Shown one piece after another: positions 50,491-64,000 of a stretch of 64,000 nucleotides of DNA; position 1 is the stretch's first letter; each line of letters starts with the position of its first letter. The translations under genes were made by a program, and so were the position numbers. The stretch comes from Hadesarchaea archaeon. GTDB taxonomy: Archaea > Hadarchaeota > Hadarchaeia > Hadarchaeales > Hadarchaeaceae. Below the pieces are notes generated by a model, which was not told the origin of the DNA, ran no database searches, and was given only the letters and a program-made list of their open reading frames with translations. Where the stretch lies: NCBI GenBank assembly GCA_029259175.1, contig JAPDJH010000001.1, positions 64,001-128,000 on the forward strand, read 5' to 3'.

Positions 50491-50496
50491 TCCGGA

Positions 50497-51357: not shown

Positions 51358-51408
51358 TCGCAAAAACGATGGGGCACATTTATATGCCTCCCTTTGCGAT
51401 TCTTAATT

Positions 51409-51475
51409 GGCGATCGGCACCCGGTCGCCTCGGTCCCCGCCCCCTCTTTGTGGGGACCGGTCCCCCTCCCCTTTC
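51409..51475 (+). ncRNA. Candidate small two-hairpin RNA
   Basis: GGCGATCGG-CAC-CCGGTCGCC and CGGTCCCC-13nt-GGGGACCG; TTTATAT at 51379-85; pyrimidine tail. Confidence 0.35.
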
Positions 51476-51554
51476 CCAATACTTTCAGTGGGTTCTCCGG
51501 AAAGGAACTAGTATAGCGAAAATCATATTCTAAATCGGTGAAGGAGCGGAACCG

Positions 51555-52673
51555 GTGGAAGGGATGAGGAGAACGGGAATCGCGGAGCTCCCGCTACACG
51601 GCGGAAAGTGCCCGCCCTGGCTTTTCAGGCGCATGAAGCAGCTGGGCGAGGCGATATGCCGGCTCGTGGTGGAGGAATACGGGAGAAAGGAGCTGCTGAG
51701 GCGTCTGGCCGATCCGTTCTTCTTTCAGTCGCTGGGCTGCGTGCTGGGATACGACTGGCACTCCAGTGGTCTGACCACCGTTACGGTCGGGGCGCTGAAG
51801 GAGGGCATTGACGCACGGGAGCTGGGGATCGCGGTCTGTGGAGGGAAGGGAAAAACGTCGCGGCGAACGCCGGAGGAAATCCAGAGGCTGGCCGACGCGT
51901 TCTCCTTTTCGGATTCCAAGGTGGAGGAACTCCAGCGGGCGAGCAGGCTGGTCGCGAAGGTGGACAACGCGTGCGTGCAGGACGGATACCAGCTGTACCA
52001 CCATGCGTTCATCGTTTCCGAAGACGGAGACTGGACAGTGATCCAGCAAGGGATGCACGATCGCTTCGCCAGGCGCTATCACTGGTTTTCGGGGAACGTG
52101 CGCAGCTTCGTCGACGAGCCGCACACGGGAATCGCAGGGGATCGGCGGGAGAGCGCGGTTCTCGACATGACGGCGCGCGAGAGCGAGGAGTGCAGACGGG
52201 CGAGTGTCGATCTCGTGCGCGAGAATCCCAAGAGGCTGCTGCCCTATCTGCGGAAAACCGAGCAGCGCACGCTGGAGGACTACTTTGCGCGCTCTCCGCA
52301 GGCGAAGGTGTTGGTTATGCCAGCACGGCACACGATCTCGGAGCTCACGGAGCGGACCCTGGCGGCATTGCAGCGAGCGTACGAGATCCAGCCCCAGGAC
52401 TACGAGGACCTGATTTCCATCCGTGGGATCGGGCCAAAGGCCATCCGCGCCCTCGCTCTGGTTTCGGATCTGGTCTACGGCAAGCCCCCCTCGTGGCGCG
52501 ACCCGGTGAAGTACTCGTTCGCCCACGGGGGGAAGGACGGGGTTCCGTACCCAGTGGACCGCCGGACGTATCAGACGACCATCCAGATTCTGGAGGACGC
52601 AATTCAGGAAATGCAGACGACTCGGGAGGAGAAGATTCGCGCGCTCCGAAGGCTTCACGAGTTCTTGGGATGA
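51555..52673 (+). CDS. DUF763 family protein
   Basis: LPLHGG..P.WLF.RM, LGYDWHSSGLTT, VQDGYQLYHH, DPVKYSFAHGGKDGVPYPV. Confidence 0.92.
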   Translation: MEGMRRTGIAELPLHGGKCPPWLFRRMKQLGEAICRLVVEEYGRKELLRRLADPFFFQSLGCVLGYDWHSSGLTTVTVGALKEGIDARELGIAVCGGKGKTSRRTPEEIQRLADAFSFSDSKVEELQRASRLVAKVDNACVQDGYQLYHHAFIVSEDGDWTVIQQGMHDRFARRYHWFSGNVRSFVDEPHTGIAGDRRESAVLDMTARESEECRRASVDLVRENPKRLLPYLRKTEQRTLEDYFARSPQAKVLVMPARHTISELTERTLAALQRAYEIQPQDYEDLISIRGIGPKAIRALALVSDLVYGKPPSWRDPVKYSFAHGGKDGVPYPVDRRTYQTTIQILEDAIQEMQTTREEKIRALRRLHEFLG

Positions 52674-52724
52674 GCGCGCCTCCGAGAGCGTTATAGGGAA
52701 GGAGCCCCCCATTCTCTTGGAAGG

Positions 52725-54557
52725 ATGGAGCGAAAGAAGATCGCTACGCTTTTCGTCGGATTCGCTCTGGTCGCTCTGATCGCGGTAGGGCTTATCCTGC
52801 TCGGTGGAGAAAAAAGGATCGCAGTACCTGAAAACTTTTCCGTCAAATCGGGGATTTTGGAGCACGACGAGGTATGGTCGGGCGAGGTGCTGATCACAGA
52901 CACGGTGGAGGTTCCCCAGGGAGTGACCCTCACCATTGAGCCCGGAACGGTGGTCAAGTTCAAACACTGGAGACACGGGTACGCGGAGCCCGAGGGAAGA
53001 GTTGGGCTCATCGTCGACGGGACGCTCAAGGCCATCGGGACGCCCGATCAACCGATTTGGTTCACCTCAGACGCCACAGATCCCATGAACGGGGACTGGG
53101 AGGGGATCCACTTCCACAATGCCAGCGATGCCAGCATTATCAAGTATGCAATCGTGGAGTTCGCCAATCACTCCAACATCAGTATGTGGAACTCCAGTCC
53201 CACCATTTCGCATGTGATCTCGCGCTGGAACAACTCGGAGGGGATCTACTTAGAGTCTCACTGCTCCCCTGTCATCGAGTACTGCATGATCTACCAGAAC
53301 GGGTTCAACGGGATCGCGATGGAGCAGTTCAACGAAAACGTGTGCATTCAGCACAACTACATTGCCTACAACGGGTCGAGCGGGATCCACCACATGGCCT
53401 CCAGCTCGACGATCAGGCACAACGTCATCGTGGGGAACCAGAACGGGATCTCCTTCATGGACAACAGCTTCGCCCTTGTGGAGCACAACCTCATCCGGGA
53501 CAGCCGGGGGGCGGCCATCTGGTCGGAGACAGGGGGCTCCTCGGCGGTCATCCGCCTCAACACGATCGAGAACAACCCGTGTGCCCTTGGGGGGTTTGAG
53601 TTCTCTCCGTTCGTTCTCGAGTTCAACAATCTGCTGAGCTCGGGGGACGCCGAGATCGCGCTTGAGGAGGAGGCGGCCGGAACCGTGGTGGTGGAGAACA
53701 ACTGGTGGGGGACGACCGATGCGCAGGAGATTTCGGAGAGAATCGCCGCCGGGAGAGCGTCCGTGAGCTTTTCAGCATTTTTGAAGGAGCCGGCGGTCGA
53801 GGCTCCCCAGCTCCTCTTCGACTATGAGGATCTGCGCCCATACGAGCTGGGCTACACCCCAGGAGATCCAGAGCTGGACCGCTTTCCGTGGGTCCTGCCC
53901 GACGACGAGACCCGCAGGGTGGTCAAGCGCATCAGCTCCGGGGACGAGATGCCGTGGAGCCTGGCGTGGGGGGATAATCACCTGTGGGTCGCGAACAATC
54001 TGGGGGTGTTCAAGCTGGATCCGGAGACCGGCGAAGTGGTCGCAGAGTTCCCCAACCCGGGAGTGAGACCGTGGGGGATGGCATTCGATGGGGAGCACCT
54101 GTGGGTGAACGACTTCACAGAGCTCGCGCTCTACGAGCTCGATCCAGACACCGGGGAGGTGCTATCTGAATTCTCGTACGCTGAGCAGTTCCCGGGGGCT
54201 CTGAACGGGCTGGCTTGGAACGGGGAACACCTGTGCCTCACGGGATGGTCTGAGTTCCGGGGGCTGGTCAAGTTCGACCGCGACGGAAATCTCGTTGAGC
54301 AGATACCGACTGAGGAGTGGGTGGGGTGCGGACTGACCTTCGATGGGGAGTTCTTCTGGGCCCCGGACGGCAACGGGAAACTGTGGAAAATCGATCAAGA
54401 AGGAAACTGTGTTGGCTGGATTTCGGCCGGAGGGGCCGTCGGGACGTGGGATCTCGCGTGGGATGGGGAGCACCTCTGGAGCGGGGAGCGGACCTACGAG
54501 GTGTGGGCGGACAACAAGATCTTCGAGCTGGAGATTCTGGAGGTGCAGCCCGCCTGA
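52725..54557 (+). CDS. Membrane-anchored surface protein: right-handed beta-helix plus beta-propeller
   Basis: N-terminal TM; TLTIEPGTVVKF...GT...PIWFTS...DWEGI; N/G/I beta-helix repeats; LAWDGEHLW propeller blades. Confidence 0.8.
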   Translation: MERKKIATLFVGFALVALIAVGLILLGGEKRIAVPENFSVKSGILEHDEVWSGEVLITDTVEVPQGVTLTIEPGTVVKFKHWRHGYAEPEGRVGLIVDGTLKAIGTPDQPIWFTSDATDPMNGDWEGIHFHNASDASIIKYAIVEFANHSNISMWNSSPTISHVISRWNNSEGIYLESHCSPVIEYCMIYQNGFNGIAMEQFNENVCIQHNYIAYNGSSGIHHMASSSTIRHNVIVGNQNGISFMDNSFALVEHNLIRDSRGAAIWSETGGSSAVIRLNTIENNPCALGGFEFSPFVLEFNNLLSSGDAEIALEEEAAGTVVVENNWWGTTDAQEISERIAAGRASVSFSAFLKEPAVEAPQLLFDYEDLRPYELGYTPGDPELDRFPWVLPDDETRRVVKRISSGDEMPWSLAWGDNHLWVANNLGVFKLDPETGEVVAEFPNPGVRPWGMAFDGEHLWVNDFTELALYELDPDTGEVLSEFSYAEQFPGALNGLAWNGEHLCLTGWSEFRGLVKFDRDGNLVEQIPTEEWVGCGLTFDGEFFWAPDGNGKLWKIDQEGNCVGWISAGGAVGTWDLAWDGEHLWSGERTYEVWADNKIFELEILEVQPA

Positions 54558-54623: not shown

Positions 54624-54715
54624 CCCGCGGTAACTCAGCCTGGTAGAGTGGCCGGCTGTAGACCCGGACGGCTGAAACCGGCATGTCGGGGGTTCAAATC
54701 CCCCCCGCGGGACCA
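54624..54715 (+). tRNA. tRNA-Tyr (GTA) with 15-nt intron at 37/38, CCA encoded
   Basis: CCCGCGG/CCGCGGG acceptor stem; GCCGG-CTGTAG[54662-54676]A-CCGGC; GGTTCAAATCC. Confidence 0.92.
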
Positions 54716-55905
54716 CCTACAACTTGTCCAGATGCCTCCTCAGAAATTTGCGCCATTTCCTCGAGGGCCCCGCTCTCCTGCAGGGCCCGCTCCACGATGT
54801 CCGGAGCCAACTCTAAGAGCTTCCGCACCACGCGGGCCACGATTTCCTCCTCTTTAGTCCTCCGCTCCTCGATTCTGAAGGCTTCTGAAGGCGAGAGCAC
54901 GGCGGAGCACCGGACGCAGTAAACCGCATCTTTGGGGTTCGCGCACCCGCACCTGGGGCAGACTTTCCGATCCCTTCCGGTGTCTATTCCGTAGTGCTTC
55001 AGCAGGGCGTCGTCCACATCCCTTCCAGAAAGATGGACGTAGCGCGCCGGAACTTGGCTCGTCTTGGTCCAGCCGAAGTAGGTCCTGAGCTGGTCTTCCG
55101 TGAGGACCTTGGCGAGGTGGGTGGCTCTGGTGTGTCTTAGAAGATGCGGGTAGATTCTCCGCTTGCTGAGGCCTGCGCGTCGGGCTGCACGCTTCAGGAT
55201 CTTGTTGAAGTACTCCACCGTGATCGCCTCTCCATTGGAGCCGGGCCAGAGCCACGCGCTGGGATTCTCCCGGTTGGGGTGGGAGTTCATCCATATCTGC
55301 AGATCGTGAACGCTCTCGACCAGCCTGATCCGCCTCATCCCGGTCTTCCCGTTAACCACGATTACGGCCCCGTATTGGTCGAATTCGACATCCCTGATCC
55401 GGAGGCCGAGGAGCTCCCCAGCCCTGCACCCGGACTCGTACCCAACATGGATCAGGGCCCGGTCCCGCGGGTTGCGGGCCCCTACGACGAGGCGCTGAAC
55501 GTCTCCGTAGCTGAGAACCCCCTCCGGGAGCTCCCGCCTCACCTTGGGGACTTTGATCACGCTCACAGGCTCGGGCGTGGGATCCCGCGGACTTCTGCAT
55601 CCGTGAACCCAGCGGAGAAAGCGCTTCACCCTCCGCCGGTAGGTGGAAACGGACTCAGGCCTGTACTCCTTCGAGGAGAGGGAGTCCATCCAAGCAATCA
55701 GATCCTCGCGCGTAAGCTCCTCATACGGCTTCCCGTCGCGCCCGAGGGTTAAAACCGCCTGCACGTTCGCCTTGATGCTCCAAGGGGAAAACCCTGAGAT
55801 CCGCATCTCTTGGACGAACTCCTCCAGCTTCCTGCGCCTGGGCTCCGAGAGCACGGACAGGATTTTGGAGAGCCAGCGGTTGAGGAGTTCGTGAGTCAAG
55901 TTCAT
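54694..55905 (-). CDS. Tyrosine recombinase/integrase with C-terminal zinc ribbon
   Basis: SGCRAGE, GKTG, HLLRHTRAT, YFGW, RYVH catalytic residues; CPRCG..CVRC. Confidence 0.93.
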   Translation of the reverse strand: MNLTHELLNRWLSKILSVLSEPRRRKLEEFVQEMRISGFSPWSIKANVQAVLTLGRDGKPYEELTREDLIAWMDSLSSKEYRPESVSTYRRRVKRFLRWVHGCRSPRDPTPEPVSVIKVPKVRRELPEGVLSYGDVQRLVVGARNPRDRALIHVGYESGCRAGELLGLRIRDVEFDQYGAVIVVNGKTGMRRIRLVESVHDLQIWMNSHPNRENPSAWLWPGSNGEAITVEYFNKILKRAARRAGLSKRRIYPHLLRHTRATHLAKVLTEDQLRTYFGWTKTSQVPARYVHLSGRDVDDALLKHYGIDTGRDRKVCPRCGCANPKDAVYCVRCSAVLSPSEAFRIEERRTKEEEIVARVVRKLLELAPDIVERALQESGALEEMAQISEEASGQVVGGPAGGI

Positions 55906-56978
55906 TTTTTCCCTCTCCTTTTCTTTTTGATATAAAGACGCATTTTTGGAACCCACAATGGGATTAATACATGCTCTTCGTATGACCTCTCTTCTTGTTT
56001 AAACAGGGTTGCTACTAAATTAGTGCCACAGCATGCAATGGCCTTTATCTCAAATGAACTAATTTTTGAATACGGCATACCATAAATCTCGTAAAACTTT
56101 TTCCGATCTTTTTGGTATACTTCTCTCACCCTGCTTATCTCCGGGCCTTCTACAACAGGTCGTATCCACTCTAACAGCTCCTCAAGTTGTCTTGTGGTGT
56201 TATAATTTCTCGCAACATTAAGCGCGGGAAATATCTCGGGATCATCTCTTTTGTCTTTGAAGAATTCTTCCAATTCTTCGGGCTTTTTTAATGCATATGT
56301 CCACGCTTCACGTGTTCCCGGATGTAAAGGAATCTCGCTAACAAGATATGTAAAAAGTGTTTCTAGTTCGGTTCTAAGCAATTCCCAGTTGAAACGAGCG
56401 AGTCCCCTAATAAGCTCCGCCTCATTAAGGGAGTATTCAAAAAGTTGATATTGTGTTTTTAGCCCCCCTTCGAGAGTCTCGCGCATTTCTTTCGTTTCTT
56501 CCATCCATTCACGGTAGCATGCGAACGATTGAGAATGGGGGCAATCTAAGAGCTTCCCTTTTTTAGATCTTCTGATTTCAAGAGATGAAATAACCAAGAT
56601 GGTATCAATAACATCATTGGTTAGTATCTCCTTTCCTTTTTCGACATCGAGCTGAATAAGGCTTGAAATATTAGATAAGTGTCTCAAAGTTCTTCCAACT
56701 GGGGTATTGTCCACCAACTCTATTAGGATTCTATAACGCTTCCCAGGGCCTCTTTCTAAAGGAGGCGCAACTTTGCGTATTATTTTGCCTTCTTCTTCCA
56801 TTTTTGAAAGGCACTCGCTAAGAGATGTCCGTGCAAGACCTGTTTCTATGACAAGATCTTCGAAGGTTTTAGGTCCTTTTTCTAAGGCTTCTTCAATTTT
56901 TCTTTCACTTATCTTTGGACGCCCACGCTTACGTCCCATGTTCCACCACGCCTTTCGTTTCATTTTCATAAAATCCAT
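55902..56978 (-). CDS. wHTH regulator with unknown C-terminal domain (start may be 56939)
   Basis: GPKTFEDLVIETGLARTSLSECLSKMEEEGKIIR; AT-rich. Confidence 0.7.
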   Translation of the reverse strand: MDFMKMKRKAWWNMGRKRGRPKISERKIEEALEKGPKTFEDLVIETGLARTSLSECLSKMEEEGKIIRKVAPPLERGPGKRYRILIELVDNTPVGRTLRHLSNISSLIQLDVEKGKEILTNDVIDTILVISSLEIRRSKKGKLLDCPHSQSFACYREWMEETKEMRETLEGGLKTQYQLFEYSLNEAELIRGLARFNWELLRTELETLFTYLVSEIPLHPGTREAWTYALKKPEELEEFFKDKRDDPEIFPALNVARNYNTTRQLEELLEWIRPVVEGPEISRVREVYQKDRKKFYEIYGMPYSKISSFEIKAIACCGTNLVATLFKQEERSYEEHVLIPLWVPKMRLYIKKKRRGKK

Positions 56979-56985
56979 ATTTTAG

Positions 56986-57016
56986 TAGGGAAAACTTACT
57001 TATATAGTTTTCTCTA
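56986..57016. promoter_or_regulatory. Inverted repeat flanking a TATA box between divergent regulators
   Basis: TAGGGAAAACT-TACTTATAT-AGTTTTCTCTA, 10/11 arm match. Confidence 0.55.
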
Positions 57017-57034
57017 ACATATTTTTGTGAAAAA

Positions 57035-57238
57035 ATGGCAGCAGAAACAAAAAGGAGAATAATCAACTTGGGAGGATCGGGTGTAATAGCGATTCCTCCA
57101 GATTTTCGCCGTTATTACGGGTTGAAACCTGGTTCGGAGGTTCGGGTGCTTTACGATTCGGTACTTTTGATTGTTCCTTCCAAGTGCGAGCAGAAGTTGA
57201 AAGAAAAAGAGGAACTAGTCCGGAGGTTACTGGAGTGA
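57035..57238 (+). CDS. AbrB/MazE/SpoVT DNA-binding protein
   Basis: RRIINLGGSGVIAIPPDFRRYYGLKPGSEV. Confidence 0.85.
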   Translation: MAAETKRRIINLGGSGVIAIPPDFRRYYGLKPGSEVRVLYDSVLLIVPSKCEQKLKEKEELVRRLLE

Positions 57239-57331
57239 AGCCGGAATCCGCCCACACTCCTGCTTTCAACGCGCTTTTCAAATTCGCTCGAGAGCGCGGG
57301 CTCTTGAAGCGCGAAAAAGGAGGGAAGAAGC

Positions 57332-57577
57332 GTGAAGCCGGGAGAACGACCAAACATGGGGATGGGAAATAAAGACATCGAAATCCACATCCGGGCTATT
57401 GTCATCTCGCTTGAGCGCGAGCCCGAGGTGGTGCTCACAGCTGGGCAGGCTGGAATCGTTCGCATGCGAGGGGTTGAAAGCGTGAGCGGTGTTCCGAGCT
57501 TTATTCTTCCCGGCCCAAACCCGTCTTCAAGATTCGACAAAACGGGAAGGGTGGAAAGCTATGACATCAAACGGTGA
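57332..57577 (+). CDS. Small hypothetical protein
   Basis: ORF between AbrB and primase genes, same strand, GGAGG upstream. Confidence 0.45.
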   Translation: MKPGERPNMGMGNKDIEIHIRAIVISLEREPEVVLTAGQAGIVRMRGVESVSGVPSFILPGPNPSSRFDKTGRVESYDIKR

Positions 57578-60236
57578 AATCCCGAAAGCTGAAAACCTTC
57601 CGTCCGAACTCCTCAGACTCAACCGCTTCGTCGTCTGGCGCGAGGAGAAAAGAGGGAAGAAGCTGGTCAAGATCCCGTGTGCCCCGTGGAGGACCGGACA
57701 CTGGGGTCCGGCTTCCGCCACCGATCCGGACAACTGGACCGATTTCGAAACGGCGGTGGGATGGGCTGAGAAAAAACCTGACCATGGCGTTGGGTTCGTG
57801 CTCGGCGATGGAGTTGTGGGGATAGACCTCGACGGTTGCATCGACGAGAACGGAAATCTTACAGAGTTCGCGAACGAGCTCTTGCACCGCGCTGGCTCCT
57901 ACGCCGAGCTTTCACCATCGGCGCACGGAATTCACATCCTCGTGCGCGGGAGGCTCGATCAAGCGATCAAGCGGGACGACATCGGGCTAGAGGTCTATCC
58001 ATGCGGTCGGTTCTTCACACTTACCGGGCGGCGCTGGAAGCACGCGCCTTTGGAAATTCGTGAAAACCAAACCCTGCTCGACGAACTCCGAGAGAAGTTC
58101 GGTCGTGAGGTGAGGGTCGAGAAGGGCGGTGAGGGTGTGAGCGTTATCGAAATTATGGAAAAGCTGGCCCCCGAGGGGCTGAAAGCGCTGAAAAAGCGCG
58201 GGAAGAACCTCCAGGGGCCGCACCCGGTTCACGGGAGCACCACCGGCTGGAATTTCTCCATAAACCTTGAGAAGAATTCTTGGTTTTGCTACCGCCACTG
58301 GACTGGTGGTGGACCGTTTTCATTGGTCGGAATCTTGGGCAAAATCATTCAATGTGAAGATGTCCAAAAGTATGGGGGAAAATATCCCAACGAGATTGGG
58401 GACAGGATTTCAGAGCTGGCGCGAAAGCATGAAATCCAGTTTAAAGGAAAAGAGGCCCTTACTGTAGATCTCGGGAAGTACACCCTCCGGGTTTTGGGGA
58501 AGAACGCAATCCTACACGATCAGAAGGGGGATCCGGTCGAGGTTTTCCCTCTCCGCTTCCTGACCGCCGAGCGAGCGAAGGAAAAAATTCGGCAGATAAC
58601 CGGCATTGCGAAGGAGGAGATCGGCGCGAAAATGGCTCAGTTAATTCTGAAGCTCGAGGAAAACGAAAATGAAGAAAAAGACGAGGGTGAACTCGACATT
58701 AAGCCAGTTTTCGAATCGGAGTGGAAGGCCATACACCCAGCTCTCGACTTCCTTGATGGGGTTGCCTACATTGGTGTTCAGCTCCCTTGCGAGGTGGGGG
58801 GAAACGGCAACCCTGCTGATCTTCGGGACTTCCATTTCCTGATCACCAGCGAAAGAGAGAGAATTTTGGGGAGAAAAAAAGAGCTAGCCGAGCGCAGGAT
58901 CAAGCTGGCTCACCGCGTTATCACCTTCCCGAACCGGTGGAGCTTGGACGGTATCAGGAGTTGGCTCGATGGGGGAAAGATCGTTGAAAAAACAAAACTC
59001 TACCGAATGGTGCGGAGCGCGTTCGAGGACTACATGGAGTTCCAAGATGAGACCGATTACGATTTTCTAACCCTATGGACTATCGGCACCTATGTTTTCC
59101 CGATTTTTGGAGCATACCCCTATGTGTTCATTGGAGGGATTAAGGGAGTTGGGAAGACCAAGCTATTGACCCTCCTGAGCCTTATGGCTTTCAATGCTAT
59201 CTTTTCTGGGAATCTCTCCAGCGCTGCGCTCTTCCGTCTGATCCAGAGCGGGAGGGCCACAGTTTTATTGGATGAGAGCGAAAAGCTGGACAACCCGGAG
59301 AGAGCGCAGGAGCTACGGTGCCTCCTGCTGAACGGCTACAAGCGAGGAGGCTTGGTCTACCGCGTGAACAAAGACACGGGGAGACCGGAGCCTTTCGAGG
59401 TTTACTCACCCAAAGCTATCGCCAACATTCGGGGATTGGAAGACATTCTGGAGGATCGCTGCGTCAGCATTGTTATCGTAAAGGGAAAGACGGATGTGAT
59501 TGACCGGGAGCCAGAGATAGAAGACCCGAGGTGGGAGAAAATCCGGGATGCTCTTTATACTTTTGCTCTAACTCACCATAAGAGAATAGTTCAAATAAAA
59601 AATGAAATCGGTAAGCTGGAGGAACTGAGAGCGCGAAGCCGCGAGATTTGGCTCCCCATCCTAACCCTCGCCAAATTCTTTGATGAGGGCAGGGGGCTTT
59701 ACGATAGGATTCTGAAATACGCGATTCAGAAGGAGGATGAGCGCCTCGTCGAAAACATCACGGAGACTCGGGAGTACTTACTGGTGCAAGCTCTCACCAA
59801 ACTCGTCCAATCGAAAAAAAATTCTTCAGAAATATATGAGGATGGGTACCTCCCGGTACATAAAATCAAAGACGCGTTGGCTGAGTACTTCGATGGAGAG
59901 CAGCGCTGGCTCACTTCACGCTGGATTGGGAAAGCCCTCCGGCGGCTGGGGTTCAAGGATAAGCGCCGAGTGGGAACTGGCTACGAATATCTGATCCCTG
60001 CTGATAAAGTTTCGGACCTAGCTGAGAGGCTCCAGATCAGGCGGCCTCTGCTCCAAGAGTTTTACAAAGTGTTGCAGAGACTTGCGGAAAGGAGAGGTGA
60101 GTTCTCCGAGGATGAGCTGATATCTAAGTGTAAAGAGGCGGGAATTGAGAGCCCCCGGCCATTCATCAAGAGAGCCAAAGAGCGCGGAGACTTGGTTCCC
60201 CTCCCAGATGGGAACCTCCAGGTGGTGTTGAGATGA
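57561..60236 (+). CDS. Primase-polymerase (AEP) + Zn-finger-like domain + P-loop helicase replication protein
   Basis: VVW..KIP, GVGFVL..GIDLDGC, YAELSPSAHGIHI; HPVHGSTTG.NF..WFCYRH.TGGG; GIKGVGKT, LLDESE. Confidence 0.85.
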   Translation: MTSNGEIPKAENLPSELLRLNRFVVWREEKRGKKLVKIPCAPWRTGHWGPASATDPDNWTDFETAVGWAEKKPDHGVGFVLGDGVVGIDLDGCIDENGNLTEFANELLHRAGSYAELSPSAHGIHILVRGRLDQAIKRDDIGLEVYPCGRFFTLTGRRWKHAPLEIRENQTLLDELREKFGREVRVEKGGEGVSVIEIMEKLAPEGLKALKKRGKNLQGPHPVHGSTTGWNFSINLEKNSWFCYRHWTGGGPFSLVGILGKIIQCEDVQKYGGKYPNEIGDRISELARKHEIQFKGKEALTVDLGKYTLRVLGKNAILHDQKGDPVEVFPLRFLTAERAKEKIRQITGIAKEEIGAKMAQLILKLEENENEEKDEGELDIKPVFESEWKAIHPALDFLDGVAYIGVQLPCEVGGNGNPADLRDFHFLITSERERILGRKKELAERRIKLAHRVITFPNRWSLDGIRSWLDGGKIVEKTKLYRMVRSAFEDYMEFQDETDYDFLTLWTIGTYVFPIFGAYPYVFIGGIKGVGKTKLLTLLSLMAFNAIFSGNLSSAALFRLIQSGRATVLLDESEKLDNPERAQELRCLLLNGYKRGGLVYRVNKDTGRPEPFEVYSPKAIANIRGLEDILEDRCVSIVIVKGKTDVIDREPEIEDPRWEKIRDALYTFALTHHKRIVQIKNEIGKLEELRARSREIWLPILTLAKFFDEGRGLYDRILKYAIQKEDERLVENITETREYLLVQALTKLVQSKKNSSEIYEDGYLPVHKIKDALAEYFDGEQRWLTSRWIGKALRRLGFKDKRRVGTGYEYLIPADKVSDLAERLQIRRPLLQEFYKVLQRLAERRGEFSEDELISKCKEAGIESPRPFIKRAKERGDLVPLPDGNLQVVLR

Positions 60237-60241
60237 GGAGA

Positions 60242-60410
60242 TTAGTGAACTTAGTGAACATAAGTGAACTTGGTGAACTTGGAAAAGAGAGGACATTTTT
60301 TATTAGAAGAGGCGTTGCCCCGGAATGGGTGTTTCAGCGCTTCTCTTGCAACAAAAACGGGGGGTCTCCAGTAAGTTCACTAAATTCACTAAAGTTCACT
60401 AAGTTCACCT
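60242..60410. repeat. Two opposed arrays of 9-10 bp repeats (iteron-like origin)
   Basis: 4x (T/A)(A/G)GTGAAC at 60242-60278 and 4x (G/A)TTCAC(TAA) at 60375-60410. Confidence 0.75.
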
Positions 60411-60439
60411 GTCAAAACCCGTGGAAAGGCGTAATCTCA

Positions 60440-61525
60440 ATGCCCGACTTCAAAAATTGGAAGGAAAATGCGAAAAAGGGGTTTTCCAGCTTCCTACATC
60501 TTAATCCTCCTCGAAAAATCTTCCGCCCAAAGAAGAGTTTCGGTAAGGGTCTAGGAATAGGCCAAAATACACAAAAAGGAGAATCCAACGGAACCCGCTC
60601 CTCTAATAATATAATAAACGATGGAGGCGACGATTTTGTGTCTGTAAACCAAGAACGCGAAGGGGCGCCTTTCATAATGCCATCAACCACACCTTCCAGG
60701 TTTGTGAAACTCCTGCTCCCGTCCGGCGAGCTCACAAAACCCCCCGAGCAGAAGGTGGTGGCCGACTGGGACATTTTCCTCAGGTACTCCCCCGTCGAGC
60801 CCATGTCCCCCGTCGCTCTCCGGTTCCTCTGGGAGTGCATGGAAGGATCCCAAAGCTTCGAGAGCTTCATCGCGCGTGCCTTTTCATTCGAGCCAGCGCC
60901 CGCTGCGGTCTACACACGCGAACTCCACTACCTCAGGAACGAGGGCTACATTTCGGTGCACCACTCGACCAGGCGCGGCGGGAAGCTGTACCGTTACTAC
61001 GCGCCCACGCGAAAGGGGAGGGAGTACATCAGGAGGGCGACCGACTTCAGAGCGGTCGGCGGTCGGGAGGCCCGCGAAATCGCAAGAGCGGTTTTCGATG
61101 AGATGGTGTGGACTGGGTGGTTCATCTCGGTCGCGCGAAAGCAGGTCGGTATCCAAGTTCCCGATCTCGTCGCCCACAACGCCGAGCCCTTCCTGCCCTA
61201 CTGGTATCTCATGAGCTTCGACACGAGCGAGAAAGATCGCGACCGCAGGGCCCACATGCTCGCAGTTGAGGTGGAAACCTCGCGGGAGCTGAGGGCCAAC
61301 CGCGAGCAGGTGCGCAGGAACCTCTCGAAGTGGAAGGATCTCGGGTTCGGCGGTCTGCTCGTCGCCGTCAAAAACAACCGCGATCTGGAATACTTGGCGA
61401 GCCGCTACCTCTCCAGCGTCGACATAGACGAGAAAATCTGGGTTTTCAATGTCGAATCCACAATGTTTCACGATCTCTACTCTATCTTCGAGGAGGAGGA
61501 AGACGAAGAAAATCTGATCGAATAA
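60440..61525 (+). CDS. wHTH plus PD-(D/E)xK-like protein (start uncertain, 60440 or 60677)
   Basis: ELHYLRNEGYI..YYAPTRKGREYI; VPDLVA...LAVEVET. Confidence 0.55.
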   Translation: MPDFKNWKENAKKGFSSFLHLNPPRKIFRPKKSFGKGLGIGQNTQKGESNGTRSSNNIINDGGDDFVSVNQEREGAPFIMPSTTPSRFVKLLLPSGELTKPPEQKVVADWDIFLRYSPVEPMSPVALRFLWECMEGSQSFESFIARAFSFEPAPAAVYTRELHYLRNEGYISVHHSTRRGGKLYRYYAPTRKGREYIRRATDFRAVGGREAREIARAVFDEMVWTGWFISVARKQVGIQVPDLVAHNAEPFLPYWYLMSFDTSEKDRDRRAHMLAVEVETSRELRANREQVRRNLSKWKDLGFGGLLVAVKNNRDLEYLASRYLSSVDIDEKIWVFNVESTMFHDLYSIFEEEEDEENLIE

Positions 61526-61526
61526 A

Positions 61527-62261
61527 ACCGGCGAGCTCGTTCCGGGAGCGGGCGCGTGGGACTACCAGCAGGGGACGCAGCTCACCGCCCGGGCGACCCC
61601 GAACGAGGACTGGGTGTTCGAGGGGTGGTACGACGTGACGGAGGGGTCGGAGTCCCTCCTGAGTTCAAACGAGTCGCTCGAGCTCACCCTCGACTCAGAC
61701 CTCACGCTCGAGGCCCGCTTCCACCCGGAGCACGTCACGGTGACCATCGGCGACCCAGTTCCGCCCGAGGGAGGGACCTCGGATCCAAGCCCCGGGACCT
61801 ACGAGGTGGACTACGGGAGCGACTTCACCGCGAGCGCGAGCGCGAGCGAGCACTACGAGTTCTCGGGGTGGGCGACCTCGAACACGAACTTCTACGGGAC
61901 GCTCGTCAGCACCTCGAACCCCTACACGTTCACCGCGACCGAGGACGTCACCCTCTACCCGTGGTTCGAGCCGGGCGGAACGGACGGGTGGGATGGCCTT
62001 CCCGGCACCGTGTACGCCGAGGCCGCCGAGCCGTGCGTGGACGTGTGGATAACCTCGTCGGGCGCGATGCTGGACTACGGCTCCGCCTCGGGGGGGCCCG
62101 CGGTGGGTTTCTACTCCGCGTCCAGCGGCACCGTGGAGGTTATCGTAGAAGGAGCGGGCTGGGTCAGCCAGGGGGCGGCGTACGTTTCAGCCGACGCGGA
62201 GATCGTGGAAGTCTCGTTTGACGAGTGGAGCGGGCAAACTCAAGGATGGTCTGGTTGGTAA
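61527..62261 (+). pseudogene. 5'-truncated surface protein with InlB B-repeat-like domains
   Basis: Frame open from 61518 without start or signal peptide; TARATPNEDWVFEGW and ASASEHYEFSGW repeats. Confidence 0.55.
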
Positions 62262-62264
62262 AAC

Positions 62265-63011
62265 TCAGAATTGAACGGGAATGTAAAATGACGGAATGTT
62301 CTCGCTTCTAAATAGGTGAATATTTACGTTAATCGGCGCGTTGTCGCCCTCACGCTCGTAGTACTCAAGCACAATTGGATTCGCAAAAACATCTGGAGGT
62401 GCATCGTCTGGGATGTCCAGAAAGTAGAGCCGTGCCGTGATGGATGCCGAGATCCACTCAGGATTGTTCTCGTCAAATTTTCCAAAACCAGCGTAGGCCA
62501 AGCCGTTTTCATCAGCAAGCGTTGCTCTACTTTCTACGGGGAGCCAAACACGTTGAAGTACTACTACGCGCTCACGCGGGTAAAGTTCACTAAATCTGTA
62601 GCCAGCGACTATGGGACTATTCGTTGTGACAATCGCCTGAGTTGTCGGGGCCTCGACGCGCTGGCCGTAGAGCTGGATGAGCTTGCCGCCGACCACCTCG
62701 ACGCGGGCGACGTTGTCATCGCCGACGTAGTAGAGGACGTAGGCCCCCTGACCCTCGAAGTCGTAGTACTCGTGCTCGTCGCGGGGGACGCTGAACCCTA
62801 TGTACACGTTCTCCAGCACGAGGTTGTCCGGGGTTCCCCAGTAGGTGAACTCCCCGTACACGATCACGAGGTTCTCGCCGGGGCTCACCATTTCCGTGAT
62901 CGCCTCCGGCCACTCCCAGGGCGGGGGGATGATGCCGAACGCTATCAGCCCGACCACGAGCATGGCGCAGAGGATTGCGGCGTCGATGAGGTGGGTCCTG
63001 CCGAGCTTCAC
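62265..63011 (-). CDS. N-terminally anchored extracellular protein
   Basis: One N-terminal TM helix; beta-rich acidic body; GGAG upstream. Confidence 0.65.
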   Translation of the reverse strand: MKLGRTHLIDAAILCAMLVVGLIAFGIIPPPWEWPEAITEMVSPGENLVIVYGEFTYWGTPDNLVLENVYIGFSVPRDEHEYYDFEGQGAYVLYYVGDDNVARVEVVGGKLIQLYGQRVEAPTTQAIVTTNSPIVAGYRFSELYPRERVVVLQRVWLPVESRATLADENGLAYAGFGKFDENNPEWISASITARLYFLDIPDDAPPDVFANPIVLEYYEREGDNAPINVNIHLFRSENIPSFYIPVQF

Positions 63012-63092
63012 AATAACTCACTCCAGTTGTTTTCTCACCAATGTTTTTGTGTGAAGCATATAATAAAGGTGAAATGACCATCAAAACATTCA

Positions 63093-63401
63093 CTAGTCGT
63101 AAATCACCACCTCTTCCATTCTCTTCATCCACTCCTTCAGAGTTTTCTCCAGCTCGCTTTCCTCCTCGCGTGGGCTTTGCGAGCTGGCGCTCATTACCGT
63201 GCTCCAGCTCTCCATATCGGATTCCAAGAGGAAAACTAGGCAGAACAAGCCGACCACGATGCAACAGATGAGAAACATCCAGCCCACTACCGTCCGGAAG
63301 AGGCCTCCCCCCTCCAAGTATCCCAGCCCGAGGAAGCGGTCGGCCAAGTACAGCACCACGAAGCTGGAGCAGCTCATCGCGATGATCCTGTACCACCCCA
63401 T
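63093..63401 (-). CDS. Two-TM membrane protein
   Basis: Two hydrophobic helices, charged C-terminal helix. Confidence 0.6.
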   Translation of the reverse strand: MGWYRIIAMSCSSFVVLYLADRFLGLGYLEGGGLFRTVVGWMFLICCIVVGLFCLVFLLESDMESWSTVMSASSQSPREEESELEKTLKEWMKRMEEVVIYD

Positions 63402-63407
63402 AGCAAC

Positions 63408-64000
63408 TCACCTCGCGAGCGCGGGCCAGAGCGTTCCGATTATCACATCTCCCCAGAGCACGGTGATGAGGAGTCCTATGAGCATGGCCGGGACGAACGG
63501 GTAGCCTACCTGACCGGTTTTCCTGTCCATGTACATGCGTGGCACCGCCAAGCTCTGAAGGGCGACGATTCCTTCAGCCCATAGCCCCACGCACCCGATC
63601 CACCGCGCGGCGTCGGTGAGCCAGCCCATCGGGGGGAGAAACGCTGGTGCGGCGAACAGCAACGAGAGGTACCAGACCGACCAAGGCAGGGAGATCACTC
63701 CGTCATACAGGTTGTCGAGCACAGCAAACCCTGTGACCAGCAACGCGAAGCCGAAGAGGGGCGGAAACACCTGAATGAAGACATCTGGGAACTTCTCGTA
63801 GGCCCTCCCCAGAAACGGCCAAACGCCGATGGCAACAATCACTGCGCCGAGCGTGCCCCATCTGAGCATCTTCTTCAGCGTTTTTCGTTTCACAATCTTT
63901 GCGAGGAGGGGGATGTGGCGATGCCTGCGCTTGAGGAACATGGCCGTGCACACAATTGGATTTCCTATGAACAGCGAGTTCAGCATCACCGACAGGAGGA
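63408..64000 (-). CDS. C-terminal part of A24 prepilin peptidase-like protein (partial)
   Basis: SVMLNSLFIGNP and GYPFVPAMLIGLLITVLWGD parallel TVLFNSLILAVP and GMPFAPLLALGLLVGVFYGD of the host peptidase; frame open to window end. Confidence 0.65.
   Translation of the reverse strand, partial: LLSVMLNSLFIGNPIVCTAMFLKRRHRHIPLLAKIVKRKTLKKMLRWGTLGAVIVAIGVWPFLGRAYEKFPDVFIQVFPPLFGFALLVTGFAVLDNLYDGVISLPWSVWYLSLLFAAPAFLPPMGWLTDAARWIGCVGLWAEGIVALQSLAVPRMYMDRKTGQVGYPFVPAMLIGLLITVLWGDVIIGTLWPALAR

What the first reader, a model, noticed from the sequence alone, without database searches (positions are those of the whole stretch)
54694..64000. Archaeal integrated element with PICI/satellite-like core
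Seen: int <- wHTH regulator <- palindromic TATA operator -> AbrB -> small ORFs -> prim-pol/Zn-finger/helicase -> opposed repeat arrays -> PD-(D/E)xK-like gene, then surface and membrane cargo. No capsid, terminase or VirB4 motif is visible so far. Known: int-stl/str-pri-rep-ori is the order in bacterial PICIs. Inference: a self-priming integrative replicon (satellite, plasmid or provirus) in a poorly sampled lineage.
Basis: partly seen in the sequence, partly recalled or inferred. Interest (0 to 1): 0.7.

Follow-up and report, generated by a model that had tools for sequence, protein, structure and literature searches.

The report
Archaeal integrative replicon carrying defence genes
A 37.5-kb mobile island sits in a tRNA gene of a hydrothermal-vent archaeon; it carries its own integrase, genetic switch, primase-helicase and replication origin plus several restriction systems, and it looks like an integrated plasmid rather than a proven virus satellite.

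Summary
All the listed parts are present in the order given: an intron-bearing tRNA, a tyrosine integrase, a wHTH gene, a palindromic TATA operator, AbrB, a PrimPol-Zn-helicase Rep, 4+4 opposed 9-bp iterons, a wHTH/nuclease-like gene, and membrane genes.

The element runs well beyond the window. Contigs from other samples carry an empty site that joins the tRNA directly to DNA 37,475 bp downstream, at a 14-bp direct repeat. A third copy of the repeat suggests two elements in tandem. One is a 22.8-kb integrase-bearing replicon. The other is a 14.7-kb restriction-modification island with no integrase.

No virion, terminase or conjugation gene was found in any of the 52 ORFs scanned.

The C-terminal half of Rep folds like MCM and the SCCmec Cch helicase (Z about 15). 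Its primase domain matches SaPI5 PriRep5 and the phage NrS-1 primase. The replication module therefore does work like that of a PICI, but no satellite-specific feature is present.

The best reading is a cryptic integrated plasmid-like element with defence cargo.

One result was unexpected. Rep belongs to a large unnamed metagenomic family, and in about a third of its relatives the same TAGTGAA iterons lie inside the rep coding sequence.

The parts
54624..54715 (+). tRNA gene, probably tRNA-Tyr(GUA) with an intron. It is the integration target and is left intact by the insertion.
   Evidence: ARAGORN and Rfam RF00005 at 55 bits. The orthologous tRNA is 89-91% identical in 3 of 3 same-genus genomes.
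54703..54716 (+). attL core, the 14-bp repeat CCCCGCGGGACCAC (3' strand of the tRNA acceptor stem plus ACCA). attR lies at 92178-92191 in extended window numbering. A third copy, sharing 14 nt offset by 2, lies at 77454-77467.
   Evidence: The 12-mer core occurs only 3 times in the 1.3-Mb genome, always on the + strand, against 0.29 expected. Empty-site contigs in runs X4 and X3 join position 54716 to 92192 onward.
54694..55956 (-). Tyrosine integrase with a C-terminal zinc ribbon. A probable start at ATG 55905 overlaps the stop codon of the upstream gene by 4 nt.
   Evidence: PF00589 4e-20 and Zn_Ribbon_1; phrog_1 2e-32; NF040815 1e-30, below its cutoff. The R, K, HxxR, W and Y positions were read directly from the translation.
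55902..56978 (-). wHTH protein (345 aa in the source's call). Candidate master regulator, in an operon with int.
   Evidence: HTH_5 0.003; ORF80_fam 2e-4, far below its cutoff. No relative was found by the word-index search. Atlas hits to HTH clusters score 0.87 or less, so they are leads only.
56986..57016 (.). Palindromic operator around a shared TATA box, lying between the two divergent start codons.
   Evidence: Inverted repeat with 11-nt arms, 91% complementary, around the TATATA palindrome at 57001-57006.
57035..57238 (+). AbrB/SpoVT-MazE-fold DNA-binding protein, the first gene of the replication operon.
   Evidence: PF04014 2.6e-6. A homologue lies upstream of rep in 1 related locus, L046.
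57184..57577 (+). Two small overlapping ORFs (62 and 81 aa) of unknown status.
   Evidence: ORF list. No family matched.
57489..60236 (+). Rep. It comprises an AEP primase-polymerase (aa 34-212), a Zn ribbon (about aa 216-281), a linker, an MCM/Cch-like AAA+ helicase (about aa 400-850; Walker A GGIKGVGKTK, Walker B LLDESE) and C-terminal winged helices.
   Evidence: PDB sequence matches: 6a9w (NrS-1) 3e-19, 7ola (SaPI5 PriRep5) 1.7e-16, 1d0q 0.016. phrog_13901 2e-43. AF2 model with pLDDT 84.5. Foldseek: 5dgk (Cch) 1e-7, 6k9c 4.9e-6, 8tch (SaPIbov1 Rep) 2e-5. VIA-align: MCMs at Z about 15; 5dgk_B at Z 15.2 with 334 residues aligned at rmsd 6.1.
60242..60408 (.). Putative origin: 4 forward and 4 reverse 9-bp iterons (TTAGTGAAC) around a 92-nt spacer with an A/T-rich patch.
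   Evidence: The same motif, in the same opposed layout, occurs in related elements.
60638..61525 (+). 295-aa protein with a PadR/MarR-like wHTH (aa 56-135) and a C-terminal domain carrying a PD...ExE motif.
   Evidence: Model with pLDDT 68.7. wHTH match to 3elk_B: Z 11.9, rmsd 1.7, 78 residues aligned. Only 4 remote homologues were found, each the C-terminus of a TraG/TrwB/HerA-like ATPase. Invariant residues D195, E211, E213, E217, Q224, N228 and K231.
61614..62261 (+). Cargo: protein with an InlB-type B-repeat.
   Evidence: PF18998 7e-5, just below its cutoff.
62265..63401 (-). Cargo: a 248-aa protein with an N-terminal membrane anchor and a 102-aa protein with two TM segments.
   Evidence: Hydropathy script. 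No family matched.
63408..64000 (-). Cargo: a 660-aa polytopic membrane protein with 14 predicted TM segments, continuing to 65390 beyond the window.
   Evidence: No family matched. Found in 0 of 30 relatives at a convincing level.
54717..64000 (.). Left 9.3 kb of the island. The island continues to 92191 in extended numbering, 37,475 bp in all.

Best explanation
This is a 37.5-kb integrative island inserted in the 3' end of a tRNA gene of a small-genome archaeon. Earlier notes call the host Hadarchaeota. The runs that hold the sequence are labelled hydrothermal vent metagenomes.

Its left end is a plasmid-type integrative replicon of the 'cryptic integrated element' kind.

Integration. The tyrosine integrase recombines a 14-bp core identical to the tRNA acceptor 3' strand plus ACCA, which leaves the tRNA intact.

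Control. A palindromic operator lies over a shared TATA box between two divergent, apparently leaderless operons. One operon is wHTH-int, for maintenance and integration. The other is AbrB-small ORFs-Rep, for replication.

Replication. Rep would bind the two opposed TAGTGAAC iteron arrays through its C-terminal winged helices. It would then load itself as two MCM/Cch-like hexamers on either side of the spacer and prime with its own AEP domain, leaving elongation to host enzymes.

Cargo. The rest of the island carries at least three restriction-modification pairs, other nucleases and methylases, and membrane proteins. This cargo would stabilise the island and protect the host.

Structure. The island is probably an accretion of the integrase-bearing replicon (about 22.8 kb) and an R-M island with no integrase (about 14.7 kb), which the replicon's integrase could move in cis.

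What is shown and what is inferred:
- Shown: the anatomy, the precise insertion polymorphism, the folds, and the conservation of the iterons.
- Inferred: the logic of the switch, Rep-iteron binding, autonomous replication, and cis-mobilisation.
For: Insertion
- The contig in run X4 (9,110 nt) and the contig in run X3 (5,462 nt, depth 35.2) read through the tRNA to position 54716. They then continue with the letters that lie right of the repeat at 92178-92191.
- Single contigs in X1 and X2 span the tRNA and the island.
- The X3 contigs that lie on the island have depth 3.5-6.7 (runs).
- All 32 differences between the X1 contig and the window lie in the flank (50040-54251). None lies in 54717-64000.
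- The repeat core occurs 3 times in the genome against 0.29 expected.

Integrase and Rep: see parts.

Origin
- The 8 iterons follow the rep stop codon.
- In 41 related loci, exact AGTGAA occurs 65 times forward and 0 times reverse in the 180 nt left of the conserved RELELWKP codons. It occurs 0 times forward and 33 times reverse in the 180 nt to the right.
- Background is about 0.065 per 180 nt, about 2.7 per 7,380-nt side.
- 14 of 44 loci have at least 2+2 opposed copies, against 21 of 880 random centres.

Kind of element
- In 9 of 11 long related loci a tyrosine integrase lies within 5 kb of rep and next to housekeeping genes.
- Only Rep is shared with these loci.
- No virion, terminase, VirB4 or VirD4 family was found in the 52 island and flank ORFs scanned with Pfam, nor in those also scanned with PHROGs or PADLOC.

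Cargo: REase_II 1.5e-53, MTase_II 8e-180, a nicking endonuclease 6e-41, MTase_II 2e-151, REase_II 2e-32, and others.

Literature
- The SaPI ori lies immediately downstream of rep, with opposed iterons around an AT-rich centre that are bound by the Rep winged-helix domain (PMC9371898, passages).
- The class of cryptic integrated elements is described in PMC6563490 (passages).
Against: - No circular junction, excess coverage or replication intermediate was seen. The runs are contigs with one depth figure each, so copy number cannot be read from them.
- The middle repeat at 77454-77467 rests on sequence statistics alone.
- In relatives the stretch just downstream of rep is not enriched for repeats: 11 of 57 against 188 of 1,140 background windows. 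The 'ori after rep' layout is therefore particular to this island.
- The intragenic motif in relatives could in part reflect conserved tripeptide repeats.
- About half of the island's ORFs match no family. Archaeal virion proteins are often unrecognisable, so a provirus or satellite cannot be excluded.
- The identical island on diverged flanks could be an assembly chimera of co-existing strains rather than transfer.
- No CRISPR spacer matches the island: 0 of 18 in the genome's own array.
Confidence: 0.68

Rival explanations
1. A virus satellite, functionally like a PICI or like pSSVx/pSSVi. The island stays repressed, is induced by an unknown helper virus of this archaeon, replicates with its own PriRep-ori module, and is packaged in the helper's particles.
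For: - The gene order int / divergent regulators / primase-helicase / iteron ori is that of SaPIs. The Rep domains match SaPI5 PriRep5 by sequence, and the SCCmec Cch helicase (which the paper likens to SaPI2 Rep2) and SaPIbov1 Rep by fold (PMC9371898).
- The element is polymorphic between samples and identical in sequence on diverged flanks.
- Many ORFs are unexplained.
Against: - No terS, capsid-size or helper-derived gene was found by Pfam, PHROGs or PADLOC.
- Known archaeal satellites carry helper-virus genes (bioRxiv 10.1101/2025.02.15.638363, passages).
- At 22.8 to 37.5 kb the island exceeds the roughly 15 kb of SaPIs.
- Relatives of Rep in IMG/VR are few and distant: 8 loci at 24-34% identity.
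- No helper virus is known.
Confidence: 0.1
2. A provirus of an undescribed archaeal virus type. Its structural proteins would be the unrecognised surface and membrane proteins (61.6-65.4 kb) or other unknown ORFs.
For: - Archaeal spindle-shaped and pleomorphic viruses have small membrane-embedded structural proteins that profile libraries miss.
- The island has an integrase, a primase-helicase, a membrane-anchored 248-aa protein, a 2-TM 102-aa protein and a repeat-bearing putative surface protein.
Against: - No PHROG or Pfam structural or packaging ATPase hit in any ORF scanned.
- The membrane genes have no relatives in IMG/VR.
- A 14-TM, 660-aa protein is not a typical virion part.
- Related elements are only 4-8 kb, consisting of int plus rep plus a few small ORFs.
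- 0 of 18 CRISPR spacers match.
Confidence: 0.08
3. A mobilisable integrative element. The wHTH-nuclease gene next to the iterons would process DNA for transfer by a conjugation-like machine encoded elsewhere.
For: The only homologues of the 295-aa protein are C-terminal regions of 529-741-aa proteins with TraG/TrwB/HerA-like ATPase domains. One related locus (L078) has a TrwB/HerA-like ATPase near rep.
Against: - There are only 4 remote homologues, with E from 5e-9 to 9e-4.
- The ATPase part is absent here.
- No VirB4 or VirD4 family was found in the island.
- The nuclease fold is not confirmed.
Confidence: 0.06
4. An immobile fossil or defence island at a tRNA hot spot. The replicon genes would be relics, and the presence/absence pattern would come from homologous recombination between strains.
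For: - A same-genus genome (G003) has a different island with no integrase at the orthologous tRNA, carrying type I R-M, RadC and a PD-(D/E)xK gene.
- Most of the island is R-M cargo.
Against: - The integrase, Rep and iterons are intact.
- The junctions fall exactly at a 14-bp repeat.
- The first 9.3 kb of the island shows zero differences while the flank shows 32 in 4.7 kb.
Confidence: 0.06

Closest known systems
Replication module of staphylococcal pathogenicity islands and SCCmec (SaPI5 PriRep5, PDB 7OLA; SaPI2 Rep2 / SCCmec Cch, PDB 5DGK; SaPIbov1 Rep, PDB 8TCH)
   Same: - A fused primase plus self-loading hexameric helicase with a C-terminal winged helix.
- The ori lies immediately after rep and is made of short iterons in two opposed groups around a central spacer.
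- An integrase and divergent regulators lie upstream.
- The primase domain matches 7OLA at 1.7e-16. The helicase fold matches 5DGK at Z 15.2.
   Different: - The host is archaeal.
- The helicase is MCM/Cch-like, whereas according to the paper PriRep5's own helicase is SF3. This Rep therefore combines a PriRep5-type primase with a Rep2/Cch-type motor.
- The iterons are 9 bp rather than 5-6 bp.
- There is no packaging or interference module.
- The island is larger and consists mostly of R-M cargo.
Cryptic integrated elements (CIE) of archaea, as defined for Thaumarchaeota (PMC6563490)
   Same: - tRNA-targeting tyrosine integrase.
- An MGE-type replication protein (primpol-helicase or MCM/Cch-like).
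- R-M and other cargo.
- No viral or conjugative hallmark genes.
- Arrays formed by re-use of one att site are mentioned there (passages).
   Different: The phylum is different. The Rep family is different and is not named in the passages I read. An iteron origin has been identified here.
pRN1-family plasmids of Sulfolobales and their integrated or satellite derivatives (pSSVi, pSSVx)
   Same: A small DNA-binding repressor gene lies upstream of a roughly 900-aa primpol-helicase Rep, with essential origin sequence just downstream of rep (PMC4234260, abstract in the search listing). Some members integrate or act as satellites.
   Different: - pRN1 ORF904 has an SF3 helicase, whereas the fold here is MCM/Cch-like.
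- The repressor here is AbrB rather than CopG.
- The ORF80 family match is far below threshold (21 bits against a 95-bit cutoff).
- There are no fusellovirus-derived genes.
ICE/CIME accretions in bacteria, where an element with no integrase is flanked by att sites next to an integrase-bearing element (recalled, not read here)
   Same: Three direct att-like repeats bound two unrelated segments, and only the segment next to the tRNA has an integrase.
   Different: There are no conjugation genes. The middle site has not been verified by reads.
Lambdoid phage ori inside the O initiator gene (recalled, not read here)
   Same: In relatives of this Rep, the iteron arrays lie inside the initiator's own coding sequence.
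   Different: The initiator is an unrelated protein. Here the arrays are opposed and flank a conserved helix-coding segment. In the island studied, the cassette lies outside the gene.

Membership tests
PICI / SaPI-type phage satellites | Integrase next to an att site, with divergent regulators | tested here: met
   int at attL. The wHTH and AbrB genes diverge from a palindromic TATA operator. No homology to Stl or Str was shown.
PICI / SaPI-type phage satellites | pri-rep-ori replication module | tested here: met
   A fused primase-helicase followed by opposed iterons.
PICI / SaPI-type phage satellites | Packaging or capsid-redirecting genes (terS, ppi, cpm, or a cos site) | tested here: not met
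   None at E <= 0.01 among the 52 ORFs scanned with Pfam, or among those scanned with PHROGs or PADLOC. Divergent archaeal analogues could escape these libraries.
PICI / SaPI-type phage satellites | Induction and packaging by a helper virus | not testable with these tools
   No helper is known. The runs available are contigs only.
PICI / SaPI-type phage satellites | Size of about 10-15 kb | tested here: not met
   37,475 bp between the verified junctions, or about 22.8 kb if the middle site is a real boundary.
Archaeal virus satellites (pSSVx, pSSVi, SRCE) | Plasmid-type replicon combined with genes taken from the helper virus (MCP and/or AAA+ ATPase) | tested here: inconclusive
   The replicon is present. 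No virus-derived gene was recognised, but viruses of this host lineage are essentially unknown.
Cryptic integrated elements (archaeal iMGE class) | Site-specific insertion bounded by direct repeats, with an integrase | tested here: met
   Empty-site contigs and the 14-bp repeat; PF00589.
Cryptic integrated elements (archaeal iMGE class) | MGE replication protein, with no viral or conjugative hallmark genes | tested here: met
Integrative conjugative elements | VirB4/TrbE and VirD4/TraG ATPases and mating-pore genes | tested here: not met
   No such family in the island ORFs. Only a homologue of the C-terminal, non-ATPase part of TraG-like proteins is present.
pRN1 plasmid family | ORF904-type Rep (primpol plus SF3 helicase), CopG ORF56 and PlrA ORF80 | tested here: not met
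   The helicase fold is MCM/Cch-like. No CopG. ORF80_fam scores 21 bits against a 95-bit cutoff.
MCM/Cch-like self-loading replicative helicases | N-terminal beta-rich domain, AAA+ core with Walker A/B motifs, and C-terminal winged helix | tested here: met
   Model pLDDT 84.5. 5dgk_B: Z 15.2, 334 residues aligned. MCMs: Z about 15, rmsd 3.5-4 over about 240 residues. K556, D595 and E596 are invariant or nearly so. Activity was not testable.
AEP primase-polymerases (PrimPol proper, NrS-1-like) | Catalytic DxD, sxH and hD/E motifs in an AEP fold | tested here: met
   6a9w 3e-19; phrog_13901 2e-43. IDLDG, SAHGIH and LEVY were read directly. The motif names are recalled.
PD-(D/E)xK nucleases (for the 295-aa protein) | alpha-beta-beta-beta-alpha-beta core with D...(D/E)xK | tested here: inconclusive
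   Invariant D195, E211 and E213 in a PDL...VEVE pattern, and a fitting predicted order of strands and helices. The fold searches were dominated by the wHTH domain, so the C-terminal domain was barely tested.
Tyrosine recombinases | Catalytic domain with R-K-HxxR-H/W-Y | tested here: met
   PF00589 4e-20. Residues were read. The scores are below the XerA/XerC equivalog cutoffs, so this is not the host's Xer.

The most novel reading that the evidence does not exclude
This island is the first helper-dependent, satellite-like element of Hadarchaeota. It is built on an undescribed and widespread family of archaeal integrative replicons whose origin is written into the coding sequence of the initiator-helicase gene. 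That origin consists of two opposed arrays of 9-bp TAGTGAAC iterons, read in frame as tripeptide repeats. Here the origin has been moved outside the gene, and the replicon's integrase can also move a neighbouring restriction island that has no integrase. I give the satellite part alone about 0.1. I give about 0.5 to the family-with-intragenic-origin part, which the evidence favours, being both real and undescribed.
Probability: 0.1. Interest if true: 0.8.

Novelty: new variant of a known kind. Interest (0 to 1): 0.5.

Why it matters
Mobile elements of Hadarchaeota and other deep-vent archaea are almost undescribed. This island offers four things.

- **A verified mobile island.** Its junctions are exact to the base, and it is seen both present and absent in natural populations.
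- **A candidate minimal replicon.** The AbrB-Rep-iteron segment of about 3.4 kb could seed a genetic tool for thermophilic archaea.
- **An entry point to a large protein family.** At least 493 metagenomic stretches encode relatives of this Cch/MCM-like initiator-helicase. They can be used to study how self-loading helicases recognise origins.
- **A testable rule for origin position.** In many relatives the origin sits inside the initiator gene, which constrains protein and DNA sequence at the same time.

The island also shows archaeal defence genes travelling on self-replicating integrative elements and accumulating at a single tRNA hot spot.

Tried and rejected
- **Close relatives of Rep in species genomes.** 126 pattern matches, none confirmed.
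- **Relatives in viral contigs.** For the 660-aa, 248-aa and 358-aa proteins there were none.
- **Relatives in related genomes.** The upstream 610-aa gene and the 660-aa membrane gene were not found in 30 relatives, apart from weak partial matches. Synteny could therefore not be used to set the boundaries.
- **Synteny with same-genus genomes.** G003 and G001 are poorly syntenic here. Only the gene at 51555-52673 is shared next to the tRNA.
- **CRISPR.** One array lies at C1:214.3-215.7 kb. None of its 18 spacers matches the island, the rest of the genome or the fetched loci.
- **Iterons just downstream of rep in relatives.** Not enriched: 11 of 57 against 188 of 1,140. This result led to the finding that the iterons lie inside rep in relatives.
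- **Is the post-rep cassette a rep pseudogene fragment?** blastx gave nothing better than E 1.9.
- **Integrase remnants in the 77.5-92.2 kb segment.** None by tblastn with 8 integrases.
- **Homologues of the wHTH regulator and the 295-aa protein by word index.** Only the proteins themselves were found.
- **Atlas look-ups.** Scores of 0.87 or less and 0.81 or less, so these are leads only.
- **Phage_cap_E on the Rep C-terminus.** E 0.11, which I dismissed as noise.
- **Fold of the C-terminal domain of the 295-aa protein.** Not resolved. Bse634I appeared at probability 0.25 only.
- **Sigma-70 and terminator scans.** At or below shuffle expectation, and not relevant to archaea.
- **Contig depth in X1 and X2.** It is equal for flank and island because one contig spans both, so it says nothing about copy number.
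- **Other joints and loose ends.** The 2,052-nt record and the records of 32,891-46,725 nt that match only 54684-54719 belong to other tRNA genes or other organisms.

Full report
**Where the window lies.** The window is G000:C1:64001-128000 of a 1.3-Mb, 23-contig genome that is 90.9% complete. Earlier notes of this scan call the organism a Hadarchaeota archaeon (not checked by me). The public runs that hold this DNA are labelled hydrothermal vent metagenomes. Positions above 64000 are in extended window numbering and were read from the laid genome.

- A tRNA lies at 54624-54715. ARAGORN leaves Tyr|Leu open. I read it as anticodon GUA with a roughly 15-nt intron after the anticodon loop.
- On the minus strand, a 420-aa tyrosine integrase (PF00589 4e-20, with a C-terminal zinc ribbon) ends inside the 3' end of the tRNA.
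- Upstream of it is a gene of 345-358 aa with a weak N-terminal wHTH. Its stop codon overlaps by 4 nt the integrase's probable ATG at 55905, so the two genes look like one operon.
- Between this gene and a 67-aa AbrB/MazE-fold gene on the plus strand lie 56 bp. They contain 11-nt inverted arms around a TATATA palindrome. The TATA centre is about 26 nt from one start codon and about 31 nt from the other. That suggests a single box serving two leaderless transcripts, which is inference.
- After two small ORFs comes the 915-aa Rep. The source called 891 aa.

**Rep.**
- Residues 34-212 are an archaeo-eukaryotic primase-polymerase. Sequence matches are to the phage NrS-1 primase (6a9w, 3e-19) and to chain 7ola (1.7e-16), plus phrog_13901 at 2e-43. 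PMC9371898 identifies 7OLA as PriRep5 of SaPI5 (passage).
- A DnaG-like zinc ribbon follows, with weak support (0.016; 0.015).
- The C-terminal half has no Pfam match. It has at least 493 relatives among metagenome stretches and 72 protein clusters. Many of these are stand-alone proteins of about 550 aa. A distant full-length relative carries PF12307/DUF3631.
- An AlphaFold model built from 33 sequences (pLDDT 84.5) matches the SCCmec Cch helicase best by Foldseek (5dgk, 1e-7). Next come MCM subunits, the NrS-1 C-terminal region (6k9c, 4.9e-6) and SaPIbov1 Rep (8tch, 2e-5).
- VIA-align gives Z of about 15 for MCMs (rmsd 3.5-4 over about 240 residues). For 5dgk_B it gives Z 15.2 with 334 residues aligned at rmsd 6.1.
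- The Walker A lysine and the Walker B DE are invariant or nearly so.

**The origin.**
- Six nucleotides after the rep stop codon there are four copies of TTAGTGAAC at 9-10-bp spacing. After a 92-nt spacer with an A/T-rich patch come four copies of the complement.
- Seven of the window's 14 matches to the motif (1 mismatch or fewer) fall within these 161 bp.
- No other 200-bp stretch of the 64 kb has a 7-mer repeated five times.
- This is the layout described for SaPI origins: immediately downstream of rep, iterons on both sides of an AT-rich centre pointing in opposite directions, bound by the Rep winged helix (PMC9371898, passages).

**The same iterons lie inside rep in relatives.**
- When I scanned the 80 related metagenome loci, the same motif appeared, but inside the rep reading frame. 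Three or four forward copies are followed by about 130-150 bp that encode the conserved RELELWKPI..LA.FFD helix, and then by three or four reverse copies. Examples are L074, L084, L075, L034 and L035.
- Of the 44 loci where a regular expression found that helix, 14 have at least two forward copies to the left and two reverse copies to the right of a single 6-mer. That 6-mer is always part of TAGTGAA(C/G)T. The control was 21 of 880 random centres.
- In the 41 loci with enough room, exact AGTGAA occurs 65 times forward and never reverse in the left 180 nt. It occurs 33 times reverse and never forward in the right 180 nt. About 2.7 per side would be expected. Eleven of the 41 have at least 2+2 copies, and 24 have no such pair with this exact word.
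- The 9-bp period equals three codons, so the arrays are read as SEL/GEL- and KFT/SSL-type tripeptides.
- The mirror symmetry argues for selection on the DNA. This island supports that view, because here the cassette lies outside the gene and Rep lacks the corresponding inserts around its REIWLPIL motif.
- The cassette is not a recognisable fragment of a rep gene.
- In relatives, the stretch just after rep is not repeat-rich: 11 of 57 against 188 of 1,140.

**Limits of the element.**
- The 12-mer core of the tRNA 3' end, CCCCGCGGGACC, occurs three times in the whole genome, all on the plus strand: at 54703, 77456 and 92178. By composition 0.29 would be expected. Each downstream site shares 14 nt with the tRNA.
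- Logan contigs of four runs settled the outer boundary. In X4 a 9,110-nt contig covers 50000-54716 and continues with the 30 letters that follow 92191. In X3 a 5,462-nt contig of depth 35.2 ends the same way, with 16 letters. The X3 contigs on the island (55278-63683) have depth 3.5-6.7.
- In X1 and X2 single contigs span both tRNA and island. These two runs may be the source samples, so they are not independent.
- The island is therefore 54717-92191, or 37,475 bp, and an empty site exists in nature.
- All 32 differences between the X1 contig and the window lie at 50040-54251, and none lies in the island. X4 shares most of these flank variants yet lacks the island. This fits recent movement between strains, but a chimeric assembly of co-existing strains would look the same.
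- The middle repeat was not tested by reads. If it is real, the island is a tandem of a 22.8-kb integrase-bearing element and a 14.7-kb element with no integrase. No integrase remnant was found in the latter.

**Content beyond the window.**
- Pfam was run on 52 ORFs in all: 11 in the window, 40 beyond it, and 1 that spans two loci.
- PADLOC and PHROGs show the following in the first segment: a beta-CASP nuclease, Mrr-cat, a PLD-type nuclease, a type II REase (1.5e-53), a C5 methylase (8e-180) with a nicking endonuclease (6e-41), and a likely GHKL ATPase. The GHKL call is my reading of its N-box.
- The second segment has a 533-aa wHTH protein, an EVE-domain protein, a methylase (2e-151) with an R.Pab1-like REase (2e-32), two more methylases, and several unknown ORFs with nuclease-like motifs (my reading).
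- No capsid, portal, terminase, VirB4 or VirD4 family appeared in any ORF scanned.
- About half of the ORFs match nothing.

**The post-origin gene.** The source aa, starting at GTG 60638.
- Reading 1.8 billion representatives with HMMER gave only four remote homologues (E from 5e-9 to 9e-4). Each match lies in the C-terminal part of a protein of 529-741 aa.
- The first parts of those proteins match TraG/TrwB/HerA-type ATPases.
- The model (pLDDT 68.7) has a PadR/MarR-like winged helix: 3elk_B at Z 11.9, rmsd 1.7, 78 residues aligned.
- The C-terminal domain carries invariant D195, E211 and E213 in a PDL...VEVE pattern. Its fold was not resolved, so 'PD-(D/E)xK-like' stays a motif-level call.

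**Family context.**
- Among 11 long related loci (147 ORFs scanned), 9 have a tyrosine integrase within 5 kb of rep, next to housekeeping genes such as RadA, L37e and thioredoxin reductase. These are integrated elements of 4-8 kb.
- In 3 of the 11 the primase is a separate ORF just upstream of rep.
- Only Rep is shared with the island: 75 loci match Rep, and at most 1 locus matches any other gene. The island's integrase is only 22-25% identical to theirs.
- In the host phylum, 6 of 66 genomes including this one have a family member at E <= 1e-10. The other five are distant (best 8.6e-41), and none of the three same-genus genomes has one.
- In IMG/VR, only 8 distant loci were found.
- A same-genus genome carries a different defence island with no integrase (type I R-M, RadC, a PD-(D/E)xK gene) at the orthologous tRNA.

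**Interpretation.**
- The element works as an integrative, self-priming replicon, and its replication module is built like that of SaPIs.
- It is not a demonstrable member of the PICI or archaeal satellite kinds. The defining packaging or helper-derived genes were looked for and not found, and archaeal satellites described so far carry such genes (bioRxiv 10.1101/2025.02.15.638363, passages).
- It fits the 'cryptic integrated element' class (PMC6563490, passages). Its Rep architecture of AEP, Zn domain, P-loop helicase and winged helix is the general pattern described for MGE primases (PMC5862659, passages).

**Is it in print?**
- A full-text search for DUF3631 found one paper, on actinobacterial ICEs.
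- Searches combining iterons, archaeal plasmid, primase, origin and integrase, and iterons, 'within the coding', initiator, origin and archaea, found no description of this family or of an intragenic iteron origin in archaeal elements.
- The library lacks most subscription journals, and I read no supplements.

**Verdict.** This is a real mobile element and a new variant of a known kind, with a better-than-usual case for its origin and boundaries. The satellite reading remains open at about one in ten.

Noticed in passing
L074:4306-4499; L084:4692-4939; L075:10941-11110; L034:1171-1331; L035:2309-2469 (related metagenome loci): Opposed TAGTGAA(C/G) iteron arrays lie inside the rep coding sequence, flanking the codons of the conserved RELELWKPI helix. 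The 9-bp repeats are read in frame as tripeptide repeats.
   Followed up: yes
G000:C1:214331-215668 (outside the window): CRISPR array with a 36-37-nt repeat and 18 spacers of 33-40 nt. No spacer matches the genome or the fetched loci.
   Followed up: partly
G000:C2:147223-148413: A second tyrosine integrase, 43% identical to the integrase of related locus L083. A weak match to the window's tRNA region lies about 3 kb away (C2:144047-144094). This may be another integrated element. No second copy of the Rep family occurs in the genome.
   Followed up: no
L110:15853-20000 and L111:1-5619 (G003:C3:87853-97619): In a same-genus genome, the orthologous tRNA is followed by a different island with no integrase. 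It carries a PD-(D/E)xK nuclease, RadC, type I R-M HsdM/HsdR and a YgjP-like peptidase, and then iron-uptake genes. The tRNA looks like a hot spot for defence genes.
   Followed up: partly
window 52725-54557: The 610-aa gene just upstream of the tRNA is absent from the same-genus genomes searched and has only partial weak matches in the order. The left flank may therefore also be variable DNA.
   Followed up: partly
extended numbering 73111-75195 (L006:9111-11195, minus strand): A 694-aa protein with no family match but an N-terminal motif resembling the GHKL ATPase N-box (my reading). It sits next to a 198-aa unknown and a type II REase, and may be an unclassified defence gene pair.
   Followed up: no
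L044:8919-9920, L047:4559-5566, L036:3760-4767: In some related elements the primase is a separate gene of about 335 aa that matches the TOTE conflict-system AEP model (PF22548, 1e-20 to 3e-24). It lies directly upstream of the helicase gene and overlaps it.
   Followed up: no
window 50040-54251 against 54717-64000 in run X1: The flank differs at 32 positions from the contig of a run that may be the source sample, while the island part is identical. This indicates either strain mixing in the assembly or recent transfer of the island.
   Followed up: partly
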